DNA from: Dehalococcoidia bacterium | GTDB lineage: Bacteria > Chloroflexota > Dehalococcoidia > UBA6926 | Assembly: GCA_965243495.1 (NCBI GenBank) | Contig: CBDEUZ010000007.1 | Coordinates: 295,743-359,742, forward strand | Length of the DNA stretch: 64,000 bases | Direction of reading: 5' to 3' | Shown here: positions 1,202 to 61,475 of the stretch, one piece after another | How positions within the stretch are numbered: position 1 is the stretch's first letter | How the letters are laid out: every line of letters starts with the position of its first letter | Made by a program: the position numbers and the translations under genes | The notes under the pieces: model-generated | Databases searched by the model: none | Seen by the model: only the letters and a program-made list of their open reading frames with translations | What the model was told of the DNA's origin: nothing

Positions 1202-1304
1202 TGATACCTCCCGTCATTCCCGCGAAAGCGGGAATCTTAGACCTGGAGTGCGATCCAACACCTTCCGCCACTCCCGTTGGCTTCTTGTTGTCCTGACTGC
1301 GTAG

Positions 1305-6961: not shown

Positions 6962-7120
6962 CACTCTTTTTTCGTCATTCCCGCGAAAGCGGGAATCTGG
7001 AACGCGGAGCCCAACCGGTCACGGTAACGCCTCCCCTGCCATGCGCATACCGCCAAATACCTCTGCTACCCTATTGAAGACGTTTCCCCAGAGTCGCCAC
7101 ACAGGAGACACGAACACGCA

Positions 7121-12889: not shown

Positions 12890-13094
12890 ACGCACGCCCT
12901 TTTCGTCATTCCCGCGAAAGCGGGAATCCAGTGCCGCCCGCAGGGCGGCCTTCCACTCTCGGTCACCCTGAGTGTAGTCAAAGACCCCCGCTCACCTTGA
13001 GCCTGTCGACAGGCGGGGGTGGCATCCCCGGCCCAAAACAAATATGGGGGGCGCCCATGGGCGCCCCTCATCAATTGCAGCTATTGGATGTAGG

Positions 13095-13667
13095 CTACTT
13101 GTTGCCCAGCGTCGGAGCCTCACCCGGGCCGTACACGCGGATTGCGGTGCTCGCAGCCGCCGGTCCGGACGCTCCTTCCGGTGTGCGACTGCCCACTGCG
13201 ACAACCGTCCACACGCCGGGCGGCAAATCCTCCGGGATGGCGGGCAACAGATCCGTGCCGACAACCATCTCAAGCGCACCGGAAGAATTCACCTGGGCGC
13301 TTCCCATCTGGTAGTCGCTTCCTGCGCCACCTGCTTCACGAATGTACAGTGTCACGTCATCCCGTCGCGGGAAACCGGACAGCCTGAATGTCACCCGTGT
13401 CGTTCCCGGAACGAGGATGACGTTTGAATCGAGAGTATTGATATTGGCTTCCGGGTTGATGGCACCCGGTCCTGCCTCGCCGGCCGCTCCCGCCTCGCCT
13501 GCTGCTCCGGGCTCTCCTGCCTGGCCGGGCGGCCCCGGCTGACCGTCAATGCCGTCAGAACCGGGCGCTCCTGCGGGACCTGCGGGGCCTCGCTCACCCT
13601 GCTCACCTTGTGGACCCGTGCATGCCGCTAAAACGAGAATAAAGGCTGCAATAAGAACAAGGGGCAT
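13095..13667 (-). CDS. collagen-like triple-helix-repeat lipoprotein
   Basis: Signal peptide [16 protein letters not shown] with an LAAC lipobox, then 18 uninterrupted G-X-Y triplets ([22 protein letters not shown]...), then a ~110-aa C-terminal domain. The ORF track extends to 13778. The start at 13667 is preferred because of an AGGGAAAG Shine-Dalgarno 8 nt upstream. Confidence 0.6.
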
Positions 13668-13879
13668 CCAAAATGCTTTCCCTGTAAACACGCGCTGCTC
13701 CCTCCTGCCTAACCCCGTCAAGCGCTGTGTAAATTGGCCGAAATACGCGCGCCAAACGACTGAAAGACACTTAATCATATTGGCGCAGGTAGGGAACTGT
13801 CAAGATGAACAGGCACCGGACAGCCCTCTTCGCGCGAATTGTCGCCTTATCTGGCCACTGGTGTTAAGCCGGTTTCCAA

Positions 13880-13928: not shown

Positions 13929-14018
<90 letters not shown>

Positions 14019-14028
14019 TCCTAAAGAC

Positions 14029-14120
14029 GGAGAGGTGCTGGAGTGGCCGAACAGGCACGCCTGGAAAGCGTGTAGGGTCTTACCGGGCCCTCGCGGGTTC
14101 GAATCCCGCTCTCTCCGCCA
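14029..14120 (+). tRNA. tRNA-Ser (anticodon GGA)
   Basis: 92-nt class II tRNA. Anticodon loop CUGGAAA, long variable arm, T-loop GGTTCGAAT, encoded CCA. Confidence 0.9.
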
Positions 14121-14316: not shown

Positions 14317-15495
14317 GTGAACGACGATCTCCCATATTGGATAGCATTTCAGCGCGTCAGCAGGCTCGGCCGGGTCAGATTTGGACATCTCGAGTCGCAT
14401 TTCCCTACTCTGAAAGACGCTTGGCACGCATCAGAGTCGGAACTGCGCGCCACCCGTCTTGATCAACGTACGGTGGAGGAAATCCTTTCAACCCGCGTCG
14501 ACATCAACCCCGAGGATGAGCTTGAGAGACTGCACCGTCACCGAGTCACTGCCTACACCTGGCATGACGAGCAATACCCTGCCCGACTCCGGCAGATCCA
14601 TGACATGCCCCCCGTCCTGTACATCAAAGGAGAACTCAAACCCGAGGATGATCTTTCGATAGCCGTCGTTGGAACCCGCAAGGCCACGCCATACGGACGC
14701 GAGGTCACACGTGAATTCGTCCGAGACCTCGTGCAAGCAGGACTCACAATTGCCAGCGGACTCGCCGCCGGCATAGACTCAACAGCTCACTACGCCACCC
14801 TGCAGAACCGGGGCAGAACAATCGCCGTCCTCGGCAGTGGCGTGGACATCATCTATCCCGCGCAGAACCGCAAGATGGCCGCAGAAATCGTGGAGAACGG
14901 CGCGCTCATCAGCGACTACCCAATCGGTACGCCACCCATGAAAGAAAACTTCCCGCGCCGCAACCGCATTATGAGCGGCATCAGCCTTGGCTGTCTCGTC
15001 ATCGAGGGGAATGAGAAAAGCGGCGCTTTGATTACTGCCCGGCAGGCCCTTGAGCAAAACAGAGAGGTCTTTGCCGTCCCCGGCAGCGCCCTCAGCGAGC
15101 GGAGCCGCGGCCCCAACCTACTCATTCAGAACGGCGAGGCGAAACTCGTGCTGACCACTGAGGACATCCTGCAGGAGCTGAACCTGTCTCAGGAGGACCG
15201 GCAGCTGAATCTTCCGTCCACGACTGAGCCGGTTGACGAAGAACAGGCCGCCGTCCTCAGGGTTCTCAGCCGTTCCCCCATCCACATTGATGAGATCTAT
15301 CGGGCCTCCGGAATGTCCATGCCTGAAGTATCCAGTACCCTGACTATGCTGGAACTGAATGACCTCGTAAGGCAGGTTGGCGGAATGCACTACGTCTTGA
15401 CACGAGAGGCTCATGCGATTTACGAATCTCATAAGGGAACCAGTGACGACGGACAACAGGCGGAAGCCATGACCGCTGAAAATCAGCGCACCTGA
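14317..15495 (+). CDS. dprA: DNA-processing protein DprA
   Basis: 392 aa with a Rossmann-like core (VVGTRKATPYGREVTREF ... AGIDSTAHYATL ... IIYP). Confidence 0.9.
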   Translation: MNDDLPYWIAFQRVSRLGRVRFGHLESHFPTLKDAWHASESELRATRLDQRTVEEILSTRVDINPEDELERLHRHRVTAYTWHDEQYPARLRQIHDMPPVLYIKGELKPEDDLSIAVVGTRKATPYGREVTREFVRDLVQAGLTIASGLAAGIDSTAHYATLQNRGRTIAVLGSGVDIIYPAQNRKMAAEIVENGALISDYPIGTPPMKENFPRRNRIMSGISLGCLVIEGNEKSGALITARQALEQNREVFAVPGSALSERSRGPNLLIQNGEAKLVLTTEDILQELNLSQEDRQLNLPSTTEPVDEEQAAVLRVLSRSPIHIDEIYRASGMSMPEVSSTLTMLELNDLVRQVGGMHYVLTREAHAIYESHKGTSDDGQQAEAMTAENQRT

Positions 15496-15510
15496 AGAGG
15501 CAAAAAGCGA

Positions 15511-17802
15511 ATGACAACCGGTCGAAAGAAGTCGACGACTACACGGAAGACGAAGAAGGCCTCTGCTTCAAGCAATGGCCGCGCAAGCGGTCGCTCATCG
15601 ACGGCGCGGCGAACGAGCAGTTCATCCGGCTCTAACGCGGCACGCGGCGGCGATGTCGTCATCGTCGAGTCTCCTGCCAAGGCCCGCACACTCTCACGCA
15701 TCCTCGGCAACGGCTACAACGTCCTGGCCTCCGTCGGGCACGTCCGCGACCTGCCCAAGAGCAAGATGGCTATCGACGTGGAAAATGATTTCACGCCGGA
15801 TTACGTCGTGCCGCGTGACAAGTCCTCCGTCGTCAAGGAGATCAAGGCCGCCGCAAATGCCGCGGACACCGTTTACCTCGCAACAGACCCTGACCGTGAG
15901 GGAGAGGCCATCTCATGGCACCTAATGGAAGCCGCCGGCATCCCGCAGGAAAGGATGCGCCGGGTCGTCTTTCATGAGGTGACGGAGAACGCAGTCCGCC
16001 GCGCCTTTGACGAGCCGCGCGGCATCGATGTCGATCTTGTCAACGCCTATCAGGCCAGACGTGTCCTTGACCGCCTCGTCGGATACCGCCTCAGCCCGGT
16101 CCTCTGGAGCAAGGTGCGCAAGGGACTGTCCGCAGGCCGTGTCCAATCCGCTGCTCTCCGGCTTGTCGTTGAACGCGAAGCGGAAATCGACGCATTTGTG
16201 CCGCAGGAGTACTGGGAAATCGACGCGAACCTTGCGACACAGGCCGAACAGGCAGAAGACTTTGCTGCCCGGTATCGGGCGGAGCTAGGCGCAAGCCGTG
16301 CTGTCAACATTCCGAATCAGGAAATGGCTGACAGAATTCTCGCCGATTTGCGAGCAAGCAGCTACCAGGTCGAGTCTGTCCGCCGTCGCGAGACAACGCG
16401 CCGTCCCGGACCGCCCTTCATCACCTCTACCCTCCAGCAAGAGGCGTTCCGCAAACTGCGCTTCACCGCCCGCCGGACTATGACCATCGCGCAGCAGCTC
16501 TATGAGGGCCTGCCCATCGGCAATGAAGGCCCAATCGGTCTCATCACCTACATGCGCACCGACTCAACCAACATGGCAAACGAGGCCGTGCAGGAAGCGC
16601 GCGCCGTCATCAGCAACCGCTACGGCAAGGATCACGTCCCCGCCTCTCCCAGGTCCTTCTCGCGCCGTGTCAAGGGAGCGCAGGAAGCCCATGAGGCTAT
16701 CCGCCCCACGTCCTTCATGCGTGACCCGGAGTCGCTGCGAAACTCCCTGAGCCGCGAGCAATTCAACCTCTACCAGCTCATCTGGCAGCGCGCCCTCGCT
16801 TCGCAGACGGCTGACGCAAAGTTCGATCAGACCACCGTCGACATCACGGCCTCCGGCGCGCCGTCCGGCACAAGCCACACCCTCCGCGCCAGCGGCTCCA
16901 TCATGACCTTTGCAGGCTATCTCGCAATCTATCGTGAGGGCCTTGATGAGCCGGATCCGGAGTCCGATGAAGGGCGAGTGCTCCCGGATCTACGTGAGGC
17001 ACAACCGCTAGACATGCGAAACGTCGCGGGAACCCAGCGTTTCACGCAGCCCCCGCCCCGCTATACCGAGGCTACGCTGATACGAGCGTTGGAAGAGCGC
17101 GGCATCGGCCGACCCAGTACTTATGCCGCCATCCTCAGCACCATCCAGGACCGCGGCTACGTGGACAAAGCCGATAACCGCTTCCGACCCCTCAAGCTCG
17201 GTACGGCGGTATCCGGCCTCCTCTCCGAGTATTTCCCGCAGGTTTCCAGCCTTGACTTCACCTCCCGTATCGAGGAGGAGCTCGACGACGTTGCCCGCGG
17301 GGAGCGGGAGTGGGTGCCTGTGTTGCGTGATTTCTACGGGCCCTTCAATGAACGTATCGACACCGCGCAGGAAAAAATCGAGCGTGTTCGCAACATCGAC
17401 GAGGAAACTGATGAGGCGTGCCCGGAGTGCGATGCGAACATGGTTATCAAGCGTGGCCGCTACGGCCCGTTCCTCTCCTGCTCGCGATTCCCTGACTGCC
17501 GCGGCATGAAGCGCATCCAGAAAAGCACGGGGGCCAATTGCCCGAACTGCAGCGGCGAACTGGTGCAACGATCATCCCGCAAGTCCCGCCGCCCCTTCTA
17601 CGGCTGCTCCAACTACCCCAACTGCAACTTCCTCACCAACCAGGAGCCGTTGCCCCAGCCCTGCCCCGACTGCGGCGGCCTCGTTGTTGCCTCAAGTCGA
17701 ACCAATGCGACATGCAACGACAAGGAATGCGGCTGGCAGGGTTCCCGCGAGGAACTCACCGCAGAACAGCCGCAAGCGGAACCCCAACTCGTCGAAGTCT
17801 GA
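15511..17802 (+). CDS. topA: DNA topoisomerase I
   Basis: 763 aa. TOPRIM N-terminus (VVIVESPAKARTLSRILG), the active-site Tyr region, and C-terminal Cys4 zinc ribbons (CPECDANM..., CPNCSGEL..., CPDCGG...). Confidence 0.95.
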   Translation: MTTGRKKSTTTRKTKKASASSNGRASGRSSTARRTSSSSGSNAARGGDVVIVESPAKARTLSRILGNGYNVLASVGHVRDLPKSKMAIDVENDFTPDYVVPRDKSSVVKEIKAAANAADTVYLATDPDREGEAISWHLMEAAGIPQERMRRVVFHEVTENAVRRAFDEPRGIDVDLVNAYQARRVLDRLVGYRLSPVLWSKVRKGLSAGRVQSAALRLVVEREAEIDAFVPQEYWEIDANLATQAEQAEDFAARYRAELGASRAVNIPNQEMADRILADLRASSYQVESVRRRETTRRPGPPFITSTLQQEAFRKLRFTARRTMTIAQQLYEGLPIGNEGPIGLITYMRTDSTNMANEAVQEARAVISNRYGKDHVPASPRSFSRRVKGAQEAHEAIRPTSFMRDPESLRNSLSREQFNLYQLIWQRALASQTADAKFDQTTVDITASGAPSGTSHTLRASGSIMTFAGYLAIYREGLDEPDPESDEGRVLPDLREAQPLDMRNVAGTQRFTQPPPRYTEATLIRALEERGIGRPSTYAAILSTIQDRGYVDKADNRFRPLKLGTAVSGLLSEYFPQVSSLDFTSRIEEELDDVARGEREWVPVLRDFYGPFNERIDTAQEKIERVRNIDEETDEACPECDANMVIKRGRYGPFLSCSRFPDCRGMKRIQKSTGANCPNCSGELVQRSSRKSRRPFYGCSNYPNCNFLTNQEPLPQPCPDCGGLVVASSRTNATCNDKECGWQGSREELTAEQPQAEPQLVEV

Positions 17803-17982
17803 CCCCGTTCTTGTCATTCCGAGCGAAGCCGAGGAATCTAAAGCCTCGCTTGCGCCTCCTAGCCACATGATGCCTCACGCGTAGTCCGTCATTCCCGCGC
17901 AAGCGGGAATCTGAATCCCTTTGCGCCCGCCAAACGGCGTATCCCGACTCACCCGCTTTCAAACCTGGTCTAAAATGTTGGT

Positions 17983-19032
17983 ATGGCACTCAAACCTGCA
18001 CCCACCCTGAACCAACCCGCGGACGCCGCGCCAATTCCTCAGGAGTGGGCGGCTCGGCTCAACGACTTCGCCGTGTTCCTTGAATACGAACGCGGCGCGT
18101 CTCGCTACACCCTCCGCAATTACATGGGCGACATCGGCCTCTTCCTGCAATTCCTGGCAGAAGAGGGTGTTACACGCCTGCCAAACGCCACACGCGACCA
18201 CGCCCAACGTTGGGTCTATGACCTGACGATGGACGGCTCCGCCCGCTCCTCCATCGCCCGCCGCCTCTCAGCGCTCCGCTCCTTCTGGCGCTTTCTCGCG
18301 CGAGAGGGCGTCATTGAAAACCCGGAAACCATCACAAAGACACCCTCACCCAAGATCGGCCGACGACTGCCGGACCTCCTCTCCGAACGTGACGCCGAGC
18401 GGCTTGTCCATGCGCCACTGCGATTCGCGGAGAGCATTGATGCTGCAACCGTGGACAGGCAGCAGGCCCTGCAGCGCGCCCTCGCCCTGCGAGACCATGC
18501 GGTATTGGAACTCGCCTACGGCGCAGGTCTGCGTGTGGCGGAAATCGCCTCGTTGGACATGGCAGGGCTTGATCTCCGTAATCGCGTCGCCCGGGTCTGG
18601 GGCAAACGCTCCAAGCAGCGTGAGACTCTCTTTGGGGAACCTTGCCGAGAGGCCCTCGCCATGTATCTCAACGATGCCCGCCCCCTGCTTGCCCACGGCA
18701 TCAGAACGCGTGCCGCGGTCTTCCTCAATAGCCGTGGTGGTCGGCTGACCACGCGCGGCATTGAACTCTCCCTCAAAAAGTGGGCTCGTGCAGAGGGCCT
18801 CCCGGAAGATATCCACCCCCATACTCTCCGCCACTCCTTTGCCACCCATATGCTGGACGGCGGCGCTGATCTAAGGCTCGTCCAGGAAATGCTCGGGCAC
18901 GCCTCAGTCGCCACCACGGAAATCTATACCCACGTCTCGCAAGCGCAGATGGCGCAGGCCTATGCCCGTGCACACCCGGGCATGAACCGCGACGATGATA
19001 GTGAATCTCAACGAAACACCGTTGCCGACTGA
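17983..19032 (+). CDS. site-specific tyrosine recombinase (XerC/XerD family)
   Basis: 349 aa, C-terminal catalytic motifs HTLRHSFATHMLDGGADLRLVQEMLGHASVATTEIYTHV. Confidence 0.85.
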   Translation: MALKPAPTLNQPADAAPIPQEWAARLNDFAVFLEYERGASRYTLRNYMGDIGLFLQFLAEEGVTRLPNATRDHAQRWVYDLTMDGSARSSIARRLSALRSFWRFLAREGVIENPETITKTPSPKIGRRLPDLLSERDAERLVHAPLRFAESIDAATVDRQQALQRALALRDHAVLELAYGAGLRVAEIASLDMAGLDLRNRVARVWGKRSKQRETLFGEPCREALAMYLNDARPLLAHGIRTRAAVFLNSRGGRLTTRGIELSLKKWARAEGLPEDIHPHTLRHSFATHMLDGGADLRLVQEMLGHASVATTEIYTHVSQAQMAQAYARAHPGMNRDDDSESQRNTVAD

Positions 19033-19197
19033 TAAAATAACCACAAAGGGCTATACCGCAGTTGCAGGAACACGGAACACTGACTATTCTGACTGACCGA
19101 CACTGAACGCGAACAATGCATACATCGGCTACCAACGCCGGAACGCGCAAGAACAAACTCATAGGCCATTCAACAACGAACGCGAACGACAGAAAAC

Positions 19198-19638
19198 ATG
19201 AGGGTATTGCTGATCAACGGCCCTAACCTGAATCGCCTGGGCCACAGGGATCCTGCCGTTTACGGCACAACAACGCTGGCTGAAATCGAGGCCGCGTTCT
19301 CCGCGCGCGTGAAAGAGCACGGCGCAGAATGCGTTTGCTTCCAGTCGAACCACGAAGGGGCCATCGTCGACTTTCTCCAGTCTCAGATTCCGAACGGCAT
19401 CGACGGCATCGTCATAAACCCCGGCGCGCTCACGCACTACGGCCTCAGCCTTCGCGATGCCTTGCAGGACGTTGGCGCGCCCACCGTGGAGGTCCATCTC
19501 TCAAACATCCACGCTCGTGAAGAATTTCGACGCCGCAGCGTCATCGCACCCATTGCCCGTGGACAGATGACCGGTTTCGGCTGGCGCGCCTACCTCTGGG
19601 CGCTGGACTATCTCATCGACGAATTCGACAAGGACTAA
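19198..19638 (+). CDS. aroQ: type II 3-dehydroquinate dehydratase
   Basis: 146 aa, MRVLLINGPNLNRLGHRDPAVYG. Confidence 0.9.
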   Translation: MRVLLINGPNLNRLGHRDPAVYGTTTLAEIEAAFSARVKEHGAECVCFQSNHEGAIVDFLQSQIPNGIDGIVINPGALTHYGLSLRDALQDVGAPTVEVHLSNIHAREEFRRRSVIAPIARGQMTGFGWRAYLWALDYLIDEFDKD

Positions 19639-23258: not shown

Positions 23259-24089
23259 ATGGCGACCGACCACGAAACAGCATCTCGCGCGCCTCTTCGC
23301 CTAGGCTGGCTATCCACCGGACGTGGCCCCGGCTCTCGGGGACTCCTCGCAGCGGCGTACAAGGCGATCTCCAACGGCACTCTCAACGCATCTATCGACT
23401 ACGTCCTCTGTACCCGCGCACGCGGCGAGGCAGAGGGCAGCGATATGTTCCTCGACCAGGCTGAGAATTACGGCCTGACCACTGTTTCGCTCTCAATCCG
23501 GGACTATCGCCAACATCGTGCCAACGACCCCGCGTGGCGAGACCGCTACAACACCGATCTGCTATCCGCCGTTCAGCACAGACCCGTTGATGCGCTTGTC
23601 TTTGCAGGCCTCATGCTCGTCGTAAGCGAGGAAATCGTTAATGCCTTCCCCGCCCTCAACCTTCACCCCGCCCTCCCCGGCGGGCCCGTAGGCGCGTGGC
23701 AGGACGTGATATGGGAACTCATCCGACGGGACGCGATTGAGACAGGCGTCATGGTGCAGCTATCGACTGCAGAGGTCGATAAGGGGCCTGTGATCGCATG
23801 GTGCCGCTTTCCAATTCGCGGGCCGGAGTTCGACAGCCTCTGGGATGAAGTCGCAGGACAGTCTGTCGACATCCTGCGCCAAAAACATGGAGAGGATCAC
23901 CCTCTGTTCACCAGAATCCGCCAGGAAGGCCTGCGACGAGAACCGCACACACTCGTCGAGGCACTGCATCAGATAGCCAACGGCAACGTGCAGATTGACG
24001 GCGGCGTTGTACGGAACACCAACGGCCAACTGCTCGAAAACGGCCTTGATATCACGGAGAAAATCGAAACGGCAATCAGAGATGACTGA
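23259..24089 (+). CDS. formyltransferase-family protein (PurN-like N-terminal domain)
   Basis: 276 aa, LNLHPALPGGPVGAW resembles the PurN NIHPSLLP motif. It is divergent from the conventional PurN length. Confidence 0.5.
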   Translation: MATDHETASRAPLRLGWLSTGRGPGSRGLLAAAYKAISNGTLNASIDYVLCTRARGEAEGSDMFLDQAENYGLTTVSLSIRDYRQHRANDPAWRDRYNTDLLSAVQHRPVDALVFAGLMLVVSEEIVNAFPALNLHPALPGGPVGAWQDVIWELIRRDAIETGVMVQLSTAEVDKGPVIAWCRFPIRGPEFDSLWDEVAGQSVDILRQKHGEDHPLFTRIRQEGLRREPHTLVEALHQIANGNVQIDGGVVRNTNGQLLENGLDITEKIETAIRDD

Positions 24090-24228
24090 CCACCGTCATT
24101 TTCCACAACTACCCGTCATTCGCGCGAAAGCGGGAATCTTGATCCGGGAATGCAACCCCTCGCGGTAACGCCGACCGCCAGACCCCCCCCCCTCCCTCTG
24201 GGAGAGGGTTGGAGTTAGAGCAAAAGCC

Positions 24229-27854: not shown

Positions 27855-28001
27855 GCGTGGAAACTCCCTATTGGGGCTGGCTCTGAGGCAGGAACCACAT
27901 TATACAACCGCCCCACCAGTCACTACCGTCTCTCACCCGTCATTCCCGCGAACGCGGGAATCTGAATCGCGCTCCGTCCTCCAACCCCGTAACGCCTGCC
28001 C

Positions 28002-29810
28002 TCATTCCTGCGCAGCCTCCCGTAGCCGCAGATTGAGATCGATGAGCTGTTGCTCGTCCACCGTTGAGGGCGCGCTCATCATCAGGTCTTGCGCCGATTG
28101 CGTCTTCGGGAACGGAATCACCTCACGGATATTTGGTTCCCCCGCCAGCACCATCACTGTCCGGTCGATACCCGGCGCGAATCCCCCATGCGGAGGCACG
28201 CCGTACTCGAACGCCTCAAGCATATGCCCGAATCGCTCTTGAATCTCGTCCGGCGAATGCCCCAGCAGCGCGAATATCCTGTCTTGCAGTTCGCGATCAT
28301 GGATCCTGATCGACCCCGAACCCAGCTCAATCCCGTTCACCACCAGGTCATACGCCCGTGACCGAACCGCCGTCGGTGATTCCTCCAATTGGTGCGCATC
28401 ATCAGGCACCGGCGCGGTGAACGGATGATGCACGGAGTTCAGACTGCCCTCTTCATCCCCCGCCTCGAACAGCGGAAACTCCGTCACGAACGCAAACATC
28501 AGCTCATCCGGATTAGCAAGCTCCAGCCGCTCTCCCAACTCCATCCGCAGTGCGCTTAGTGATGCGCTCACGGTATCCTCATGCGCCGCCACGATAAGCA
28601 GCAGATCACCCGCCGAGGCCCCCATCACGCCCGCAATCGACCGCACGGTCTCGATCTCCAGATGCCGTGCCAAAGCCGAGCGCACGTTATCCGGCTGCAG
28701 ATCGGAAACTGCCGTCCCCGCCTCCGCGTCTAGCCCAATCGTTGCCAGCCCCCGCGCCCCCTGCCCGCGCACGATCTCTGTCAGATTCTCAAGCTCGCGC
28801 CGGCTGTACCCCCCGCAACCCGGCGCGACGATTCCCCGCACCGTCCCGCCCGCCTCTGCAAGCGCCGACGTGAACACGCCCACGCCACTGTCGGCCACGA
28901 TGCTCGAAATATCCGTGATTTCCATCCCGAAACGCAGGTCAGGCTTGTCCGATCCGAACCGCCGCATCGCCTCCGCATATGTCATCCGCGGAAACGGCGA
29001 TGTCACTCGCTTCTCCGGGGCAGTCGCGTGGGCCAGTCCCGTATAAAGCTCCTCCATAAGGTCCAGCACGTCCGTCTCGTCGACGAAGCTCATCTCCAGG
29101 TCAAGTTGCGTGAACTCCGGCTGCCGGTCCGCCCGCTGATCCTCATCGCGGAAGCACCGCGCAATCTGGAAATACCGCTCCACCCCCGCAACCATCAGCA
29201 GCTGCTTCAACTGTTGCGGCGACTGCGGCAGCGCATAGAAATGGCCGGGGTGAACTCGTGAAGGCACAAGATAGTCTCGTGCCCCCTCCGGCGTGCTCTT
29301 CATCAGCATGGGCGTCTCGACTTCCAGGAAGCCGCGACCGTCAAGGAAGTCGCGGATATACTTCACGACGCGATGCCGCAGCGCGAGATTCGCCGCCATC
29401 CGCTCCCGCCGCAGATCGAGGTACCGATACCGCAGCCGCAGCGACTCATCGACGTCCGATTCCTCATTGATATAGAAAGGTGGCGTCTTGGACGGATTTA
29501 GCACCGTCACTTCGCTCACATGGACCTCGATGCCGCCCGTCGCGATGCGCGGATTCTCCGTGCCCGCCGGACGAACTTGCACTTCGCCTGTGATGGCCAC
29601 CACCCACTCATTCCGCAGCGCGTCTGCGGATTGGTACGCCGACTCCGCCGTCGATGGATCAACCACAACCTGCACCAACCCGGTGCGGTCTCGCACGTCA
29701 AGGAAGATCAACCCGCCGTGGTCGCGCCGACGGTGAACCCACCCCGCCAGTTTCACGCGCTGGCCGGCGTCGGCAGTCGTCAATTCACCGCAGTTATGTG
29801 ATTTCAGCAT
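28002..29810 (-). CDS. aspS: aspartate--tRNA ligase
   Basis: 602 aa, OB-fold N-terminus, class II motifs and the GAD insertion. Confidence 0.95.
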   Translation of the reverse strand: MLKSHNCGELTTADAGQRVKLAGWVHRRRDHGGLIFLDVRDRTGLVQVVVDPSTAESAYQSADALRNEWVVAITGEVQVRPAGTENPRIATGGIEVHVSEVTVLNPSKTPPFYINEESDVDESLRLRYRYLDLRRERMAANLALRHRVVKYIRDFLDGRGFLEVETPMLMKSTPEGARDYLVPSRVHPGHFYALPQSPQQLKQLLMVAGVERYFQIARCFRDEDQRADRQPEFTQLDLEMSFVDETDVLDLMEELYTGLAHATAPEKRVTSPFPRMTYAEAMRRFGSDKPDLRFGMEITDISSIVADSGVGVFTSALAEAGGTVRGIVAPGCGGYSRRELENLTEIVRGQGARGLATIGLDAEAGTAVSDLQPDNVRSALARHLEIETVRSIAGVMGASAGDLLLIVAAHEDTVSASLSALRMELGERLELANPDELMFAFVTEFPLFEAGDEEGSLNSVHHPFTAPVPDDAHQLEESPTAVRSRAYDLVVNGIELGSGSIRIHDRELQDRIFALLGHSPDEIQERFGHMLEAFEYGVPPHGGFAPGIDRTVMVLAGEPNIREVIPFPKTQSAQDLMMSAPSTVDEQQLIDLNLRLREAAQE

Positions 29811-29993
29811 TGGGCAAGCAAATGAGAGTGATTCACCGGGAATCGCCGGACGGCGCTCAAGACCGCCGATACCGACGTATCAATCATAGCACCCACCCCT
29901 TCGTCATTCCCCTGCGTGACACGGGAATCCAGTGCGGCGCACACCGCCGCCTCCCCCTTGACGGGGGAGGGTTAGCGCGTTGTGGGTCCCGGC

Positions 29994-31926: not shown

Positions 31927-33657
31927 ATGAGTCAAATCCGCTACGAACCCGAAGAAGACTGCCCGCCGTTAACAGCGGTAACCGCAGCCTTACAGATACT
32001 CATCCCCAACACCATCAGCCTCGTTCTGCTGACGGCACTGGTGGTGCGTGCAGCTGGCGAATCCGATGCCTACCTCTCTTGGGTCACCTTTACCGCCCTT
32101 GTCGTCACCGGCGCCGGCATGATCCTGCAGACGCTGCGGTTGCGTCATCTGGGCGCTGGCCGACTTTTTGTCGCAAACTTCAATGTGCCCTTCCTGGCCG
32201 TGTGCGCTCTGGCGCTCTCCGTGGGCGGACCCGGATTGCTGGCCAGTCTGGTGGTGGCGTCAACCCTCATTCAGGCCGTCTTGACTTTTCGTCTCGCCTC
32301 TCTCCGCCTCATCTTCACACAGACAGTGAGCGGAATCGTCGTCATGCTGGTGGCGATATCGGCCATGCCATTCATCATCGGCAGAGTGGTCACACCACCG
32401 GAAGGCCAATCAACCCTGTTGTTCCTTGCGCCGGGCCTGGCCGCCCTGGCTGTCGGCGTCCTCATCGCCCTGCAAGACAGGCCCGTGTGGCGCATGTGGA
32501 TCCTCACAATCACCGTCGCCGTCGGAATGCTGGTCGCCGTGCCTCTGGGCTTCTATGACACGAACCCCATCGCCGAGGCCCCCTGGGTGAGCCTACCCGC
32601 CTACCCATGGCCTGCCCTGGATATCGCCTTCAACGCCGATTTCTGGACCCTCCTGCCGGTCTTCGTGCTCGTGAATCTCACCGGATTTATGAAGGTGGTG
32701 GGCGACCTGTCTGTCATCTATCGCGCCTCCTACCGCCGGCAATCCGCCGTGGACTTTCGCGCGGTTCAGGGAGGCCTGAATGTCTACGGCATCGGCACCT
32801 TTGTGTCCGGCCTCCTGGGGACCCTGCCTGTCGCCGCTCCATGGTCGTCCACTGCCGTGTATATCGGCTTCATCGGCGTTGCGGCCAGAAATGTTGGACT
32901 GTACCTGGGTGTGCTGACCATCATCGCCGCCTTCTTTTCCAAGTTCCTTGCCGTCATTGTCGCCATTCCCAGCCCCGTCGTCAGCGCGGTATACATCATC
33001 ATCTTTGCCATGCTCTTTGTGGAAGGGGCCAAAACCGTCTTCACCGGACAGATTGACCAGAAAAAGGCCGCCATCACTGGCGTCTCCATGGTGATGGGCT
33101 TGTCCGCGGTGGCATTGAGCCGCCTCTTCGAGGGCAACGTCGGCCATCTTGTTAGCAACCCTATTGTCGTCGGCGGCGCCGTCGCCATCGCCATGACACT
33201 GATCGCCCAGATGCCGCGTCTACGCGCCAGCACACTGCGGATCGACTTGTCTCCGGCCTCCCCGGCCGCTGTCGATGAATTCCTCGGCAGGTTCGCGGAC
33301 AAACAGTCGTGGACAGAGGAAGGGGCGAACCGGTTGCGTCTTGTCGGAGAAGAGGCCATCCTCAGCCTGCTCGAATCCGGCAAGGAAAGCGCCCTCCCAC
33401 AGAAGCGTTCGATGGTGGCCACAATCAGCCCCGACGGCGCTTCCGCCGAGCTTGAGATTATCGTCGCCTCTAACGACGCCATCCAGGGCAACATTGAGGA
33501 TCGCATGGCCTATCTCGGACAGGATCAGGCGCTGGAAGACGAGCAGGAACTTTCTGTCCGCATCCTGCGGCACTACGCCTCATCCGTGCAGCACCGCCAG
33601 TACTACGGCATCGACATCGTCAACTGCCGCGTCGCAGACACACCCCGTTCACCGTGA
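31927..33657 (+). CDS. multi-pass permease (NCS2/SulP-superfamily-like) with a ~150-aa C-terminal cytoplasmic domain
   Basis: 576 aa, >10 hydrophobic helices followed by a soluble C-terminal domain. Divergent from the tandem-Cache lipoprotein. Family assignment is tentative. Confidence 0.55.
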   Translation: MSQIRYEPEEDCPPLTAVTAALQILIPNTISLVLLTALVVRAAGESDAYLSWVTFTALVVTGAGMILQTLRLRHLGAGRLFVANFNVPFLAVCALALSVGGPGLLASLVVASTLIQAVLTFRLASLRLIFTQTVSGIVVMLVAISAMPFIIGRVVTPPEGQSTLLFLAPGLAALAVGVLIALQDRPVWRMWILTITVAVGMLVAVPLGFYDTNPIAEAPWVSLPAYPWPALDIAFNADFWTLLPVFVLVNLTGFMKVVGDLSVIYRASYRRQSAVDFRAVQGGLNVYGIGTFVSGLLGTLPVAAPWSSTAVYIGFIGVAARNVGLYLGVLTIIAAFFSKFLAVIVAIPSPVVSAVYIIIFAMLFVEGAKTVFTGQIDQKKAAITGVSMVMGLSAVALSRLFEGNVGHLVSNPIVVGGAVAIAMTLIAQMPRLRASTLRIDLSPASPAAVDEFLGRFADKQSWTEEGANRLRLVGEEAILSLLESGKESALPQKRSMVATISPDGASAELEIIVASNDAIQGNIEDRMAYLGQDQALEDEQELSVRILRHYASSVQHRQYYGIDIVNCRVADTPRSP

Positions 33658-33659
33658 GC

Positions 33660-34857
33660 CGCGCCAAAGCCGGACCGCGAACCGAGAGCCGTAACGCAGC
33701 TGCCCCGTTCGCCCTGAGCCTGTCGAAGGGGGCCCCCGAACGGGGACCTAGCCTCTCCGTCATTCCGAGCGTAGTCGAGGAATCTAAAGACTCATCTGGC
33801 AAACATGCTGGAACGCGGCTACCATACCCCTCCGCAACACTACCCGGATCGCGAACTTAAGCCGTAGAGCAGCTACCCCGTTCGCCCTGAGCCTGTCGAA
33901 GGGGGCTCCCGAACGGGGACCTGGCCCCTCCGTCATTCCCGCGAAAGCAGGAATCCGGAATCCCCTCTCACTCAGGGAGAGGGGTAGGGTGAGAGGGTTG
34001 TCATTCCGAGCGCAGCCGAGGAATCTAAAGACTCAACTCCGCCATCAAAGCTGGAACACGGCAAACTACCTCATTCGGTAATCGAACCCAGATCGCGAAC
34101 CGAGAGCCGTAACGCAGTTACCCCGTTCGCCCTGAGCCTGTCGAAGGGGGTTCCCGAACGGGGACCTAGCCTCTCCGTCATTCCGAGCGCAGCCGAGGAA
34201 TCTAAAGACTCATCTGGCAAACATGCTGGAACGCGGCTACCATACCTCTCCGCAACACTACCCGGAACGCGACCCGAGAACCGTAGCGCAGCTACCCCGT
34301 TCGCCCTGAGCCTGTCGAAGGGGGTTCCCGAACGGGAACCTGGCCCCTCCGTCATTCCCGCGAAAGCGGGAATCCAGTGCGGCGCACAGCGCCGCCCCCC
34401 ACGCCATATTGTCATTCCCAGCGCAGCCGAGGAATCTAAAAACTCATCTGCCAAACATGCTGGAACGCGGCGGACAAACGACACAGACCAACCAACCCCG
34501 ACCGCGAACTTAAGCCGTAGCGCAGCTACCCCGTTCGCCCTGAGCCTGTCGAAGGGGGCCCCCGAACGGGGTGCTAGCCCCTCGTCATTCCCGCGAAAGC
34601 GGGAATCCAGTGCGGCGCACCGCGCCGCCTCCCACCCCAGAATGTCATTCCGAGCGCCTATACTGTCATTCCCAGCACAGCCGAGGAATCTAAAAGCTCA
34701 ATCCGCCGCCAAACCCGGAACGCGGCGGACAAACGACACAGACCAACCAACCCCGACCGCGAACTTAAGCCGTAACGCAGTTACCCCCAAAACCCTAACA
34801 GGGCGGCCCCCTAAAGAAGCCGCCCCGCTTTTCAGAGCGTGATCGCGAACTTTAAAA
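33660..34857. repeat. 1.2-kb array of five composite palindromic repeat units
   Basis: Five tandem units each start with the hairpin module ccccgttcgccctgagcctgtcgaaggggNNcccgaacgggg. Its ends ccccgttcg/cgaacgggg are reverse complements. Units continue with gtcattcccgcgaaagcgggaatcc and/or gtcattccgagcgcagccgaggaatctaaag, with ccctctc...gagaggg and ggaacgcgg...cgcgaac segments. The same modules occur singly at ~15 other intergenic sites in the window. Confidence 0.85.
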
Positions 34858-35961
34858 TCAATCCTCGATGTAGCTCTCCAGACGCTCGCGATTCCGCTGC
34901 AGCCGCAGGTTCTTCATCGCGCCAGCCTGAATCTGCCGCACACGCTCCCGCGTCAGGCTCAGCATGTCGCCGATCTCACGCAGCGTGTACTCCTTGCCGT
35001 CCATGATTCCAAACCGCAGCTCCAGCACCAGCCGTTCACGCGGTGACAGCGACGCCAGAACCGCCGCAATCCGCTCCCGCAGCATCGTCTGCGCCGCCAT
35101 GTCGATGGGCGATTCCGTCTCGTCCTGCGCGACAAAGTCCGCCAGCGTCGCCCCGTCCTCACCGATGGGCGCGTCGATGGACGCCGGTTGCTGCGCCAAG
35201 GAGATCAGTTGCTCCACCTTCTCCAGCGGAATCTCCGTCTCCGCCGCCAGTTCCTCCGGCGTCGCCTCGCGACCGAACTGTTGAAGCAGGCGATGCCGCG
35301 CGCGGTCCACCTTCGCGGACAGCTCGCCCACATGAACCGGCAGGCGGATGCTGCTCCCCTGCTCGGACACACCCCGGGCGATGGCCTGGCGAATCCACCA
35401 CGTCGCGTACGTCGAGAACCGGAACCCGCGTCGATGATCGAACCGGTCCACCGCCTTCAGCAGGCCGATGTTGCCTTCCTGGATCAGGTCGAAAAGGGAC
35501 AGCCCCCTGCCCTGATACCGCTTGGCGATGCTGACCACAAGACGAAGATTGGCTTCGGCCATGGACTTGCGGGCTTCCTCGCCCTTCTTGACCGTCTTCA
35601 GCAGTTCACGACGCTCGGAGGCGCTCATGCTGTCCGCGCCGGCAAGGCGCTTGGACGCGCGGCGTCCCTCATCCATGAGCATGCCGAGCTCCGTCTCCTG
35701 CTGCGGCGTCAGCAGCTTGCGTCGGCCGATGTCCTGCAGATAGCCGCGAAGCGGATCATTCAGGTTCTCCGCCGAGCCACTGTCGAACTCGCCGACCTCT
35801 GGCGCGTCCACGGAAGTGGTCGTCTCATCCTGCGCATCGTCGAGGTCGAGGACATCCACGGAGGTCTGATTCACCCCCATAGGGACATCTGTCGAACCCG
35901 GCGCGCGCCGGGCCTCGTCCTCCGCGATCACGGCTCTGGTCTCGTCCGCTATCGCCTTCAT
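34858..35961 (-). CDS. rpoD: RNA polymerase sigma factor RpoD (primary sigma-70)
   Basis: 367 aa, regions 2-4 (LRLVVSIAKRYQGRGLSLFDLIQEGNIGLLKAVDRFD ... TLREIGDMLSLTRERVRQI). Confidence 0.95.
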   Translation of the reverse strand: MKAIADETRAVIAEDEARRAPGSTDVPMGVNQTSVDVLDLDDAQDETTTSVDAPEVGEFDSGSAENLNDPLRGYLQDIGRRKLLTPQQETELGMLMDEGRRASKRLAGADSMSASERRELLKTVKKGEEARKSMAEANLRLVVSIAKRYQGRGLSLFDLIQEGNIGLLKAVDRFDHRRGFRFSTYATWWIRQAIARGVSEQGSSIRLPVHVGELSAKVDRARHRLLQQFGREATPEELAAETEIPLEKVEQLISLAQQPASIDAPIGEDGATLADFVAQDETESPIDMAAQTMLRERIAAVLASLSPRERLVLELRFGIMDGKEYTLREIGDMLSLTRERVRQIQAGAMKNLRLQRNRERLESYIED

Positions 35962-48373: not shown

Positions 48374-49789
48374 TCACCCTGTCCCTCTCCCGGGAGAGGG
48401 GATTTCCAACTCACTGGCTTGAGGGTATTCAGAAAGGGCTAGCTCAACGGCTTCGTGGAGTGTCGCGGCGGGAACGACTGCGATGGGTGTTTCAGGCGCA
48501 GAAACAGCGTCCGGGGGCGCAATAATGCGGCGGTAGCCCCGGCGAGCAGTCTCGTTGATGCGGCGTTGGAGCTGGGGAACACGCCGAATATCGCCGGTAA
48601 GGCCAATCTCGCCCACTGCCGCAAGATCCGACGCAGCAGGAACGTCTCGAAGGCTTGAAACGATGGCGAGCGCAATCGCGAGATCTGCGGACGGAGTTGT
48701 GATGCGGAGCCCGCCGATAGCGTTAACGATGATGTCGTGCTTTCCGAGTGGCAGCCGTAGTCGTCGTGAGAGAACAGCACATATCAGCAGTAGGCGGTTG
48801 AGATCGACGCCCGTCGCCATACGCCGCGGATCCGCCCCGCCGGAAGGAGCAACAAGGGCCTGTATCTCGACCAACAGAGGGCGCGTTCCTTCAACGATGG
48901 GCGTAACGATGGAACCTGGCGCGGTGGATGTTCGTTCCTGTGTAAGGGCGGCGGAGGGATCATCCACCTCTCTCAAGCCCATGTCGGTCATTTCGAGGAC
49001 GGCAATCTCCTCCGTGGAGCCGAAACGGTTCTTGACGCACCGGGCAACACGGTAGGGGCCGAGACCCTCCCCTTCCAGGTACAGAACAACGTCAACTGCG
49101 TGTTCAAGCACGCGCGGACCCGCAATTGCACCGTCTTTGGTCACATGGCCGGTCATGATGATGGACACACCTCGGCGGCGCCCCCACTCGACAAGCCGTG
49201 CGCCGCACTCTCGCACCTGTGCCACGGTTCCGACTGATGACGATGTGTCAGTCCTCAGTGTTTGAATGGAATCCACGAGCAAAAGGCTTGGAGGGTCATC
49301 GCTGAGTGCGTGCAAGAGTGCGTCAATATTCGTTTCAGACAATAGCGTCACACCGTCGCCCGCAAGGGACAGACGGGCTGCACGGAGGGCGATCTGCTCC
49401 GGGGATTCCTCTCCGGCCACGTAGACCACACCCGCTCCCGCCTTTCCCAGTGCCGAGGCGATTTGCAGCAGCAAGGTTGATTTACCGATGCCGGGCTCGC
49501 CCCCAAGCAGGGTGACGCTGCCGGACACAACACCGCCGCCAAGAACGGTCATAAGCTCCGGCATGCTGGACACCGCAATCCGTGAAGGTTGCGCCGCGGT
49601 CTGCTCCATGAGGGTTGCCAACGCGGCAGGCGGAGAAGAGGCCTCGAACACGCCGCCACCAAATCCGGTGGATTCTGCGGTGACCTCAACAAGGGAGCCC
49701 CACGTTTCACACCGTGGGCAACGTCCCTCCCAGCGGGACGACTCCACCCCACAAGCCGTGCAGCTATACGAAACGCGCGGTCGTGGCAT
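48374..49789 (-). CDS. radA: DNA repair protein RadA (Sms)
   Basis: 471 aa. C4 zinc finger (CTACG...CPRC), Walker A GGEPGIGKSTLLLQ and a Lon-like C-terminal domain. The final ~8 codons run into a ccctctcccgggagaggg repeat module. Confidence 0.95.
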   Translation of the reverse strand: MPRPRVSYSCTACGVESSRWEGRCPRCETWGSLVEVTAESTGFGGGVFEASSPPAALATLMEQTAAQPSRIAVSSMPELMTVLGGGVVSGSVTLLGGEPGIGKSTLLLQIASALGKAGAGVVYVAGEESPEQIALRAARLSLAGDGVTLLSETNIDALLHALSDDPPSLLLVDSIQTLRTDTSSSVGTVAQVRECGARLVEWGRRRGVSIIMTGHVTKDGAIAGPRVLEHAVDVVLYLEGEGLGPYRVARCVKNRFGSTEEIAVLEMTDMGLREVDDPSAALTQERTSTAPGSIVTPIVEGTRPLLVEIQALVAPSGGADPRRMATGVDLNRLLLICAVLSRRLRLPLGKHDIIVNAIGGLRITTPSADLAIALAIVSSLRDVPAASDLAAVGEIGLTGDIRRVPQLQRRINETARRGYRRIIAPPDAVSAPETPIAVVPAATLHEAVELALSEYPQASELEIPSPGRGTG

Positions 49790-61382: not shown

Positions 61383-61475
61383 GGCAAAGGAGTCTCAGCA
61401 TTCTTCGCTGCGCTCGGAATGACATGGCGCGGGGCATGACGTGAGAAGGCGGTGGTCAGTAGAATGCGTAGCAAC

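What the first reader, a model, noticed from the sequence alone, without database searches (positions are those of the whole stretch)
33660..34857. 1.2-kb intergenic array of composite palindromic repeat units
Five tandem ~170-290-bp units fill the gap between the permease and rpoD. Each is assembled from the same sub-modules: a 43-nt hairpin ccccgttcg...cgaacgggg, GAAA-tetraloop stem-loops gtcattCCCGCgaaaGCGGGaatc, gtcattccgagcgcagccgaggaatctaaag, ccctctc..gagaggg palindromes and ggaacgcgg/cgcgaac segments. This is REP/BIME-like, but the modular concatenation is unusually elaborate. The unit boundaries coincide with 'cgcgaacttaagccgta(g/a)cgcag', which suggests replication by a defined mechanism such as a REP-associated transposase or template switching. 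Gene callers produce spurious ORFs here (for example 34071..34484).
Basis: seen in the sequence. Interest (0 to 1): 0.55.

Follow-up and report, generated by a model that had tools for sequence, protein, structure and literature searches.

The report
NIME-like mosaic array of hairpin repeats
The 1.2-kb gap between two housekeeping genes of a sponge-type Dehalococcoidia bacterium is a real, non-coding and fast-changing pile-up of short DNA hairpin repeats, one identical to the Neisseria sequence cut by the single-strand nuclease SsnA, so it is a known kind of repeat array in a new host with one odd feature: every copy points the same way.

Summary
Window 33639-34787 holds five full units (173-255 nt) and a truncated sixth, all in direct orientation, between a convergent NCS2 permease and an RpoD-like sigma factor. 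It is non-coding and has no Rfam match.

The units are built from hairpin families that also occur singly in other intergenic gaps of the window.
- Module B1 is an exact match to the Neisseria NTS/dRS3 motif, the target of the GIY-YIG ssDNA nuclease SsnA (Chenal 2025).
- Module A (CCGTTCG, a covarying stem, the loop GAGCYTGTCGA) is shared as an identical 28-mer across phyla. In 80 independently chosen metagenome loci it flanks a second clade of single-domain GIY-YIG genes, about 30-fold enriched.

Related genomes whose flanking genes are 85-90% identical carry, at the same site, no array (a 129-nt gap) or a different mosaic plus a restriction-modification cassette.

The array therefore resembles a Neisseria intergenic mosaic element more than an E. 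coli BIME. No RAYT transposase was found.

In Chloroflexota all copies are co-oriented, and orientation follows GC skew rather than gene direction. This is unlike the proteobacterial loci.

No ssn gene could be shown for this lineage. The nuclease link in this organism is therefore inferred.

The parts
33639..34787 (+). Lineage-specific repeat array: the segment with no counterpart in relative L173
   Evidence: Homology with L172 and L173 stops at 33638 and resumes at 34788 (L173) or 34841 (L172). Repeats are shown.
33643..33660 (+). Half of a module-A-like repeat (CCCCGTTCACCGTGAGCC). It overlaps the permease stop codon (33655-33657) and changes the protein's C-terminus relative to relatives.
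   Evidence: (family D5)
33675..33847 (+). Unit 1, short form: small hairpin, module A, B2, tail
   Evidence: Alignment A1
33848..34093 (+). Unit 2, long form: additionally holds B1/NTS (33931-33958) and hairpin E (33962-33997)
34094..34266 (+). Unit 3, short form. 94% identical to unit 1 over 188 nt.
   Evidence: (family D3)
34267..34500 (+). Unit 4, long form: holds B1/NTS (34350-34377) and hairpin D (34377-34396)
34501..34755 (+). Unit 5, long form: holds B1/NTS (34583-34610), hairpin D (34610-34629) and a partial B2 (34644-34663)
34756..34787 (+). Truncated unit 6. It ends inside the 5' flank of module A.
34529..34571 (+). Module A hairpin, one example of five. The others are at 33703-33745, 33876-33918, 34121-34163 and 34295-34337. 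Sequence: CCCCGTTCG-CCCT-GAGCCTGTCGA-AGGG-GGnnC-CCGAACGGGG. Each is preceded by the small hairpin GTARCGCAGYTAC.
34350..34377 (+). Module B1: CGTCATTCCCGCGAAAGCGGGAATCCAG, an exact match to the NTS consensus and containing dRS3. Other copies in the array are at 34583-34610 and 33931-33958 (one mismatch).
34177..34206 (+). Module B2: GTCATTCCGAGCGCAGCCGAGGAATCTAAA, one example of five. The others are at 33759, 34000, 34411 and 34665. It has the same GTCAT...ATC flanks as B1 but a 5-bp stem and a 12-nt loop.
   Evidence: (family D2)
34801..34832 (.). Hairpin with T-run shared by the two convergent genes (probable bidirectional terminator). It is conserved in relatives and is not part of the repeat array.
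1213..1236 (+). Dispersed single B1 copy between two minus-strand genes. Other single B-type copies, all on the + strand, are at 6974, 12905, 17813, 17888, 24115, 27939 and 29903.

Best explanation
The region is a non-coding intergenic mosaic array of the NIME/BIME kind. It is a landing and expansion site for several families of short, orientation-defined DNA hairpin repeats that are scattered through the intergenic gaps of this sponge-type Dehalococcoidia genome.

Two of the families are the kind of hairpin that small single-domain GIY-YIG nucleases of the Ssn type recognise on single-stranded DNA:
- B1 is the Neisseria NTS/dRS3 motif itself.
- Module A is the hairpin that flanks a second GIY-YIG clade.

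The array grew in two ways. Modules were inserted next to hairpins already present, and blocks were tandemly duplicated between the direct repeats.

Its likely present-day role is as a cluster of cis sites at which an Ssn-like nuclease can cut single-stranded DNA (incoming or replicative), and as a recombination hotspot. It is not a gene or an RNA.

Shown here: composition, hairpin covariation, dispersal, presence/absence polymorphism between relatives, motif identity with NTS, the module A-GIY-YIG association, and co-orientation.

Inferred: that a cognate nuclease exists and acts in this organism, how the modules move, and why they are polar.
For: 1. The repeats are real and far beyond chance.

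2. B1 matches CGTCATTCCCGCGMAVGCGGGAATCYRG exactly. Seven copies with at most 1 mismatch are in the window, all on the + strand, against 0 expected. The published SRM regex gives 5 hits on + and 0 on -. The paper shows SsnA cuts only the forward strand, and only as ssDNA.

3. B1 and D fold strongly as DNA (z -4.5 and -4.0). The module A stem covaries: 93% of cells paired against 71% in shuffles, 63 double changes against 21, 0 of 500 shuffles as good.

4. Module A hairpins flank GIY-YIG genes in L084 and L109. In 80 metagenome loci chosen by protein alone, the density is 2.8 per kb within 100 nt and 0.09 per kb beyond 1 kb. 49 of 76 loci have one upstream, 51 of 77 downstream, and 34 on both sides. 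The proteins are PF01541 single-domain.

5. The site is hypervariable. L173 has a 129-nt gap. L172 has a different ~800-nt mosaic plus an NgoMIV-type restriction-modification cassette. The flanking genes are 85-90% identical.

6. Single modules are present in the window but absent in both relatives at 24083-24227 and about 27906-28006, and a 16-nt D hairpin indel lies at 29934.

7. There is an internal duplication at 418-nt spacing.

8. There is no coding potential and no RNA family match.
Against: - No GIY-YIG gene is present in the 64-kb window or in about 30 Chloroflexota loci.
- The source genome is not in the searchable collections, so a cognate nuclease in this lineage is unproven. The Ssn paper itself reports that 19% of SRM-rich genomes lack ssn.
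- B2, the commonest module in the array, does not fit the published SRM regex and folds weakly (z +0.2).
- No transposition mechanism is known for NTS/SRM elements.
- The module A-nuclease link is statistical co-location, not biochemistry.
Confidence: 0.65

Rival explanations
1. It is a classical REP/BIME array maintained by a REP-associated tyrosine transposase (RAYT, IS200/IS605-like Y1 HUH enzyme).
For: - The region holds extragenic palindromes clustered in a mosaic.
- Three of the six small hairpins contain GTAG (GTAGCGCAGCTAC), the tetranucleotide typical of RAYT-type REPs.
- Strict co-orientation with the replication strand is what ssDNA transposition of the IS200/IS605 type produces (the mechanism is from established knowledge of IS608).
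Against: - No Y1 transposase was found among the 40 window genes annotated. A rough IS200 TnpA probe hit nothing in the window or about 260 loci. That probe was recalled from memory, so this is a weak negative.
- BIMEs alternate REP orientation, whereas here everything is direct.
- B1 is exactly the motif associated with GIY-YIG genes, not with RAYTs.
Confidence: 0.12
2. The repeats are orphan relics. The lineage no longer encodes any enzyme that acts on them, and the array changes only by homologous recombination and replication slippage between direct repeats.
For: - The tandem duplication at 418-nt spacing and the shuffled module order in L172 are what recombination alone would give.
- No nuclease gene was found.
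- 19% of SRM-rich genomes lack ssn.
Against: - Clean presence/absence of single ~70-150-nt modules at otherwise conserved sites implies recent insertion, not only rearrangement.
- Near-perfect sequence conservation of B1 and of the module A 30-mer argues for ongoing constraint or very recent spread.
Confidence: 0.15
3. The array is a transcribed structured 3' UTR or small-RNA array that stabilises or regulates the permease or sigma-factor mRNA.
For: - It lies downstream of the permease, upstream of the shared terminator, and is full of stable hairpins.
- REPs in E. coli are known to stabilise upstream mRNA (established knowledge).
Against: - There is no Rfam match even at E<=10, and no internal promoter.
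- The same modules sit antisense between minus-strand genes at 1213, 27939 and 29903.
- The array is absent from a relative with the same two genes. SsnA does not act on RNA.
Confidence: 0.06
4. It is an assembly artefact: a mis-joined or mis-counted repeat region.
For: Repeat arrays are error-prone in metagenome assemblies. The relatives come from different assemblies.
Against: - The units differ from each other in a structured way (short and long forms, point differences, compensatory changes GTAGC..GCTAC and GTAAC..GTTAC).
- Comparable mosaics occur in independent assemblies (L097, L130, L164, L172).
- The flanks join cleanly to conserved genes.
Confidence: 0.02

Closest known systems
Neisserial intergenic mosaic elements (NIME: dRS3 inverted repeats separating RS elements)
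   Same: - The 20-bp dRS3 consensus ATTCCCN8GGGAAT is present: 7 in the window and 2 exact plus 1 near copy in the array.
- Hairpins are separated by 35-150-nt repeat segments of several families.
- Arrays are intergenic, and syntenic arrays differ in number and order between relatives.
- A gene cassette (restriction-modification) sits inside the relative's array.
   Different: - The host is a Chloroflexota sponge-type symbiont, not Neisseria. In 2007 NIMEs were said not to occur outside Neisseria.
- Most separators here are the B2 variant, which is not strict dRS3.
- A second, unrelated hairpin family (module A) is a regular component.
- All elements are in one orientation.
NTS/SRM repeats and the Ssn family of GIY-YIG single-strand-specific nucleases (Chenal et al. 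2025, PMC11893778)
   Same: - B1 equals the NTS consensus base for base and fits the SRM search pattern.
- It is orientation-defined by the 5' CGTC flank.
- It is dispersed in many copies. The NTS-ssn-NTS layout is seen in locus L017.
   Different: - No ssn gene is shown for this lineage.
- The paper does not describe tandem mosaics in Chloroflexota, replication-strand polarity, or the GAGCYTGTCGA-loop hairpin family.
REP/BIME elements with RAYT transposases (E. coli, Pseudomonas REPINs)
   Same: Short extragenic palindromes, clustered into mosaics in convergent intergenic regions, with a GTAG-like 5' motif in some copies.
   Different: Direct rather than alternating orientation, no RAYT found, and different motifs.
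IS200/IS605-derived palindrome-associated elements and integron attC arrays (ssDNA hairpin sites polarised relative to replication)
   Same: Hairpin sites whose orientation tracks the replication strand. This is the expected signature of processes that act on single-stranded DNA.
   Different: No TnpA, TnpB or integron integrase nearby, no cassettes between the sites, and different sequence.

Membership tests
NIME (Neisseria intergenic mosaic element) | Repeated 20-bp dRS3 inverted repeat ATTCCCNNNNNNNNGGGAAT | tested here: met
   Seven strict matches in the window, at 1216, 6977, 12908, 17891, 27942, 34354 and 34587. Two are in the array, with a third copy one mismatch away.
NIME (Neisseria intergenic mosaic element) | dRS3 copies flank ~50-150-bp RS elements of many families, clustered in arrays | tested here: inconclusive
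   B-type hairpins are spaced 60-177 nt apart, with at least three kinds of intervening segment. However, 5 of the 8 separators are B2, which is not strict dRS3.
NIME (Neisseria intergenic mosaic element) | Arrays at syntenic positions differ in repeat number and length between related genomes | tested here: met
   The window has 1.15 kb, L172 a different ~0.8-kb mosaic plus a restriction-modification cassette, and L173 a 129-nt gap.
NIME (Neisseria intergenic mosaic element) | Confined to the genus Neisseria (as defined in the literature) | tested here: not met
   The permease is 98% identical to that of a Dehalococcoidia MAG. For this reason the array is called NIME-like, not a NIME.
Ssn-related motif (SRM/NTS) system | Sequence fits the NTS consensus or the SRM degenerate pattern, with the oriented 5' flank | tested here: met
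Ssn-related motif (SRM/NTS) system | The genome encodes a single-domain GIY-YIG Ssn homologue, typically flanked by the motif | not testable with these tools
   None is in the window or the fetched Chloroflexota loci. A search with an NTS-flanked Ssn returned only Alphaproteobacteria among the named proteins in the best 120 hits.
Ssn-related motif (SRM/NTS) system | Forward strand cut as ssDNA by the cognate nuclease | not testable with these tools
   This needs biochemistry.
REP/BIME with RAYT | REPs within a BIME alternate in orientation | tested here: not met
   All modules in the array and in the first 35 kb of the window are on the + strand.
REP/BIME with RAYT | A Y1 HUH transposase (RAYT) gene flanked by the REPs | tested here: inconclusive
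   None was found among the 40 window genes scanned or by a rough probe. Only 64 kb of the genome is available.
CRISPR array | Identical short repeats separated by unique spacers, usually with cas genes | tested here: not met
   The 'spacers' are themselves repeated, units are 173-255 nt long, and there are no cas genes.

The most novel reading that the evidence does not exclude
In Chloroflexota of this type, at least two families of ssDNA hairpin repeats are held in one orientation along the replichore. The strand that SsnA cuts in Neisseria sits on the C-rich strand, which is the leading-strand template. One family is the NTS. The other is a pan-bacterial hairpin (CCGTTCG-stem-GAGCYTGTCGA) that is the cognate site of a second, UPF0213-like clade of Ssn-type nucleases. 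On this reading the repeats spread, or are filtered, by a replication-coupled single-strand process. Arrays like this one are where that process repeatedly lands.
Probability: 0.35. Interest if true: 0.65.

Novelty: new member of a known kind. Interest (0 to 1): 0.42.

Why it matters
The finding extends NIME-type repeat arrays and the recently discovered NTS/Ssn system from Neisseria and other Proteobacteria to uncultivated sponge-associated Dehalococcoidia.

It gives a concrete identity to repeat families that produce many spurious 'hypothetical proteins' in metagenome annotation (WIPAFAGMT, PFDRLRANG).

It also yields two testable leads:
- A second hairpin-nuclease pair. The module A 28-mer is identical from Betaproteobacteria to Dehalococcoidia.
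- A replication-strand polarity, which would constrain how these elements spread or how the host tolerates a nuclease that cuts its own single-stranded DNA.

Tried and rejected
- **Rfam.** A scan of the array at E<=10 and of the whole window gave only a chance tymovirus tRNA-like hit and five tRNAs. This gives no support for a known RNA.
- **Promoter and terminator scan.** Nothing lies inside the array.
- **GIY-YIG in the window.** A regex and an HMM search found none.
- **IS200 TnpA probe.** No hit anywhere. The probe sequence was recalled from memory, so the negative is weak.
- **Exact look-up of three window proteins.** None is on record, so the source genome could not be extended.
- **Genome scan with the module A 28-mer.** It was intended to identify the organism. 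It instead returned 92 stretches from many phyla and not the source genome.
- **IMG/VR scan for the lineage-specific B1+D junction.** 0 hits.
- **IMG/VR scan for B2.** 4 loci, none with a GIY-YIG gene.
- **Homologue search with an NTS-flanked Ssn.** It was intended to find a Chloroflexota member. Only Alphaproteobacteria are named among the best 120.
- **More distant permease homologues (74-80% identity).** Synteny is lost, so they say nothing about this site.
- **Literature search for module A strings.** Nothing relevant.
- **Replication origin in the window.** I considered whether the GC-skew change near 50 kb marks an origin. No dnaA or dnaN is there, so I make no such claim.

Full report
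**1. The observation**

The region reads as described. Tandem Repeats Finder reports a 174-nt period (score 518) inside it. The repeat finder recovers six direct-repeat families with five or six copies each and no inverted pairs.

An alignment (A1) gives five complete units: 33675-33847, 33848-34093, 34094-34266, 34267-34500 and 34501-34755. A sixth is cut off at 34787. The 30-mer core of the large hairpin is identical in all five copies, with 0 expected by chance.

The array lies between convergent genes. One is an NCS2-family permease (31927-33657, +). The other is a 367-aa RpoD-like sigma-70 (34858-35961, -). The array is strongly C- and A-rich on the + strand (GC skew to -0.25, AT skew to +0.36).

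**2. Anatomy**

Each unit reads, in order (coordinates):
- CGCGAAC..AGCC.
- A small hairpin GTARCGCAGYTAC. It shows a compensatory pair of variants, GTAGC..GCTAC and GTAAC..GTTAC.
- Module A: CCCCGTTCG-CCCT-GAGCCTGTCGA-AGGG-GGnnC-CCGAACGGGG.
- ACCTRGCCYCTCC.
- Module B2: GTCATTCCGAGCGCAGCCGAGGAATCTAAA.
- CTGGAACGCGG.
- A ~40-nt CA-rich tail.

The three long units carry an extra block inserted exactly in front of B2. The block is module B1 (CGTCATTCCCGCGAAAGCGGGAATCCAG) followed by hairpin D (GTGCGGCGCACAGCGCCGCC) or hairpin E (CCCCTCTC..GAGAGGGG).

Folded as DNA, the z-scores are:

| Module | z-score |
|---|---|
| B1 | -4.5 |
| D | -4.0 |
| A | -2.0 |
| E | -2.2 |
| B2 | +0.2 |

The segment 33667-33854 recurs at 34085-34272 with 94% identity. 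Part of the array is therefore a duplication at 418-nt spacing.

The ORFs in the region are read-throughs of the repeats and have no Pfam domain. For example, 34071-34484 translates to ...WIPAFAGMT...PFDRLRANG... twice. There is no Rfam match and no internal promoter. The hairpin with a T-run at 34801-34832 is conserved in relatives and is probably the shared terminator.

**3. The modules are dispersed repeats**

B1 occurs nine times in the window with at most 3 mismatches. Six of those copies are single, in other intergenic gaps. B2, D, E and an A-like copy also occur elsewhere in the window.

Every orientation-defined copy between 1 and 35 kb is on the + strand, whatever the direction of the neighbouring genes. 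For example, 1213, 27939 and 29903 lie between minus-strand genes. The only minus-strand copy is a B2 at 61.4 kb.

**4. What B1 is**

A literature search on the sequence led to Chenal et al. 2025 (PMC11893778). That paper reports the following:
- The Neisseria NTS is CGTCATTCCCGCGMAVGCGGGAATCYRG. It contains the 20-bp dRS3 palindrome.
- The small GIY-YIG protein SsnA binds the forward strand of the NTS and cuts next to it. It acts only on single-stranded DNA, not on dsDNA, RNA or the reverse strand.
- ssn genes are typically flanked by the motif.
- 81% of genomes with more than 200 such motifs encode an Ssn.

B1 matches the consensus exactly. Seven copies with at most 1 mismatch are in the window, all on +, with 0 expected. 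The paper's degenerate SRM pattern finds 5 on + and 0 on -. The exact 25-mer is also in 79 IMG/VR stretches. In one of these, L017, a 97-aa GIY-YIG gene has the motif on both sides.

**5. What module A is**

Its 28-mer core occurs as an exact copy in 92 stretches of species-representative genomes. These come from Beta-, Gamma- and Alphaproteobacteria, Deltaproteobacteria-labelled MAGs, Binatia, Moduliflexus, Bacillota and many Dehalococcoidia.

Across 165 distinct copies the family has this form:
- a conserved 5' flank, CCGTTCG;
- a 4-5-bp stem that covaries (C-G, G-C and T-A swaps);
- a conserved 11-nt loop, GAGCYTGTCGA.

On the alignment of 56 of these copies (A3), 93% of cells are paired against 71% in shuffles. 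There are 63 double-change cells against 21, and 0 of 500 shuffles do as well. Slid controls fall to 28-52% paired.

In two of the 92 loci (L084 Sulfurisoma, L109 Thiocapsa) a ~92-aa GIY-YIG gene is flanked on both sides by these hairpins. I then fetched 80 metagenome loci using only that protein. The density of the loop motif by distance from the gene is:

| Distance from the gene | Motif density |
|---|---|
| within 100 nt | 2.8 per kb |
| 100-300 nt | 1.9 per kb |
| beyond 1 kb | 0.09 per kb |

49 of 76 loci have the motif upstream, 51 of 77 downstream and 34 on both sides. Only six B-type motifs occur in all 80 loci.

This clade is 33% identical to the NTS-associated protein. Its nearest solved relatives are UPF0213 proteins (1zg2, E 1.6e-15). 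Module A therefore looks like the cognate hairpin of a second Ssn-type nuclease. This is co-location, not biochemistry.

**6. Comparison with relatives**

The permease is 98% identical to one in a Dehalococcoidia MAG (VXMO01, SB0661_bin_39; locus L172) and 95% identical to one in CAYOPL01 (L173). The flanking genes are 85-90% identical at the DNA level. Homology stops at 33638, just before the permease stop codon, and resumes at 34788 (L173) or 34841 (L172).

At the same site:
- L173 has only 129 nt, holding a single A-like hairpin and the terminator.
- L172 has a different ~800-nt mosaic of the same families. It is followed by an NgoMIV-type restriction-modification pair and one more degenerate B-type hairpin.

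The last codons of the permease differ in all three genomes. In the window they are supplied by half of an A-like repeat.

Elsewhere in the syntenic block, a 146-nt B1+E element (24083-24227) and a B1-plus-tail element (~27906-28006) are present in the window but absent from both relatives. The 16-nt D hairpin at 29934 is missing in L173. The modules have therefore been gained or lost individually and recently.

**7. Polarity**

In 31 Chloroflexota loci, A- and B-type copies within a locus are always co-oriented, with one exception (L163). Orientation correlates with GC skew computed after masking the repeats:

| Family | Loci (abs. GC skew >= 0.03) with the forward copy on the C-rich strand | p | Copies on C-rich : G-rich strand |
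|---|---|---|---|
| B-type | 13 of 15 | 0.007 | 39 : 6 |
| Module A | 18 of 22 | 0.004 | 43 : 14 |

No such bias is seen in the mainly proteobacterial NTS loci (36 concordant against 27; 31 loci have mixed orientation). None is seen in the non-Chloroflexota module A loci either (26 against 40).

By the general rule that the leading strand is G-rich, the forward (cleavable) strand lies on the leading-strand template. This is the strand less exposed as single-stranded DNA. That would fit either counter-selection of self-cleavage or insertion coupled to replication. Both readings are inference. Tandem duplicates inflate the copy counts, and 8-kb skew estimates are noisy. The Ssn paper does not discuss replication-strand polarity.

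**8. Comparison with known systems**

The closest described structure is the neisserial intergenic mosaic element. NIMEs are arrays of dRS3 palindromes separating 50-150-bp repeat segments. They are dynamic between strains at syntenic positions. In 2007 they were thought to be specific to Neisseria. The array shares these features except the host genus. It differs in its B2 separators, its regular module A component and its single orientation.

It does not behave like an E. coli BIME, where REP orientation alternates. No RAYT or other transposase was found among the window genes I annotated. Those genes are housekeeping: tsaB/E, ndk, mnmA, rnhB, dprA, topA, a XerC-like recombinase, efp, clpXP, tig, aspS, tuf, radA and clpB, among others. 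It is not a CRISPR array.

**9. What remains open**

I could not show that this lineage encodes an Ssn-type nuclease. The window has none. The source genome is not in the collections. A homologue search named only Alphaproteobacteria among its best hits.

B2 is unexplained beyond its shared GTCAT...ATC flanks and a covarying stem (TTCC/GGAA and TTCT/AGAA). How any of these modules move is unknown.

**10. Verdict**

It is a REP-like mosaic, but more precisely a NIME-like array of Ssn-type hairpin motifs in a new phylum. The kind is known and this is a new member of it. Interest is moderate. It rests mainly on the polarity and on the second hairpin-nuclease pair.

Noticed in passing
window 1-35000; loci L092-L173 (Chloroflexota): All orientation-defined hairpin modules (B1, B2, A, E) share one orientation over 35 kb regardless of gene direction. 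In Chloroflexota loci the orientation tracks GC skew. Proteobacterial loci show no such bias.
   Followed up: partly
L080-L171; L175-L254: The 28-mer CCCGTTCGCCCTGAGCCTGTCGAAGGGG is identical in genomes of many phyla. Its family (CCGTTCG + covarying stem + loop GAGCYTGTCGA) flanks a ~92-aa UPF0213-like GIY-YIG gene with about 30-fold local enrichment. I found no description of this pair in the searchable literature.
   Followed up: yes
L172 10967-12726: In the closest relative, an NgoMIV-type restriction enzyme and an N6/N4 methyltransferase sit inside the same permease-sigma gap, with B-type hairpins on both sides. This resembles the hairpin-flanked gene cassettes of Neisseria.
   Followed up: partly
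window 24083-24227, ~27906-28006, 29934-29949: Single repeat elements are present in the window but absent at the orthologous sites of both relatives. These are B1 plus a ~35-nt tail ending in CGGTAACGCC, with or without hairpin E. A 16-nt D-hairpin indel lies directly 3' of ...GGGAATCCAG. The recurring 'B1 + tail ending in GTAACGCC' may be the basic mobile unit.
   Followed up: partly
window 33639-33657: The last codons and the stop codon of the permease are supplied by half of a module-A-like repeat. The C-terminal residues differ in the window, L172 and L173.
   Followed up: partly
window 14317-19032 and 48374-49789: dprA, topA and a XerC-like tyrosine recombinase lie in a row, with B2 and B1 copies between topA and the recombinase. 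A radA homologue lies further on. DprA and RadA handle incoming single-stranded DNA in transformable bacteria, which is the context in which SsnA acts in Neisseria.
   Followed up: no
window 13095-13778 (-): A 227-aa ORF with a Pfam collagen triple-helix repeat hit lies next to a composite of B1, D, a B2-like copy and an A-like copy (12905-13020) and two tRNA genes (13929-14117). I did not check whether it is a real gene.
   Followed up: no
window 36000-64000: G+C content drops from about 0.61 to 0.58, GC skew rises from about -0.1 to about 0 or slightly positive, and the hairpin repeats almost disappear. The only copy is a reversed B2 at 61399-61423, beside a tRNA. No dnaA or dnaN is present, so this is not demonstrably an origin.
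   Followed up: partly
L081 5879-6239; L149, L116, L095: Other genomes carry tandem arrays built from module A. Ideonella sp. YS5 has a 111-nt period. Several Dehalococcoidia MAGs have arrays with about 120-145-nt periods. Arrays of this hairpin are therefore not peculiar to the window.
   Followed up: no
window 19040-19200: A CA-rich intergenic stretch contains GGAACGCG and CGCGAAC pieces like the 'tail' of the array units but has no hairpin module. It may be a decayed element.
   Followed up: no
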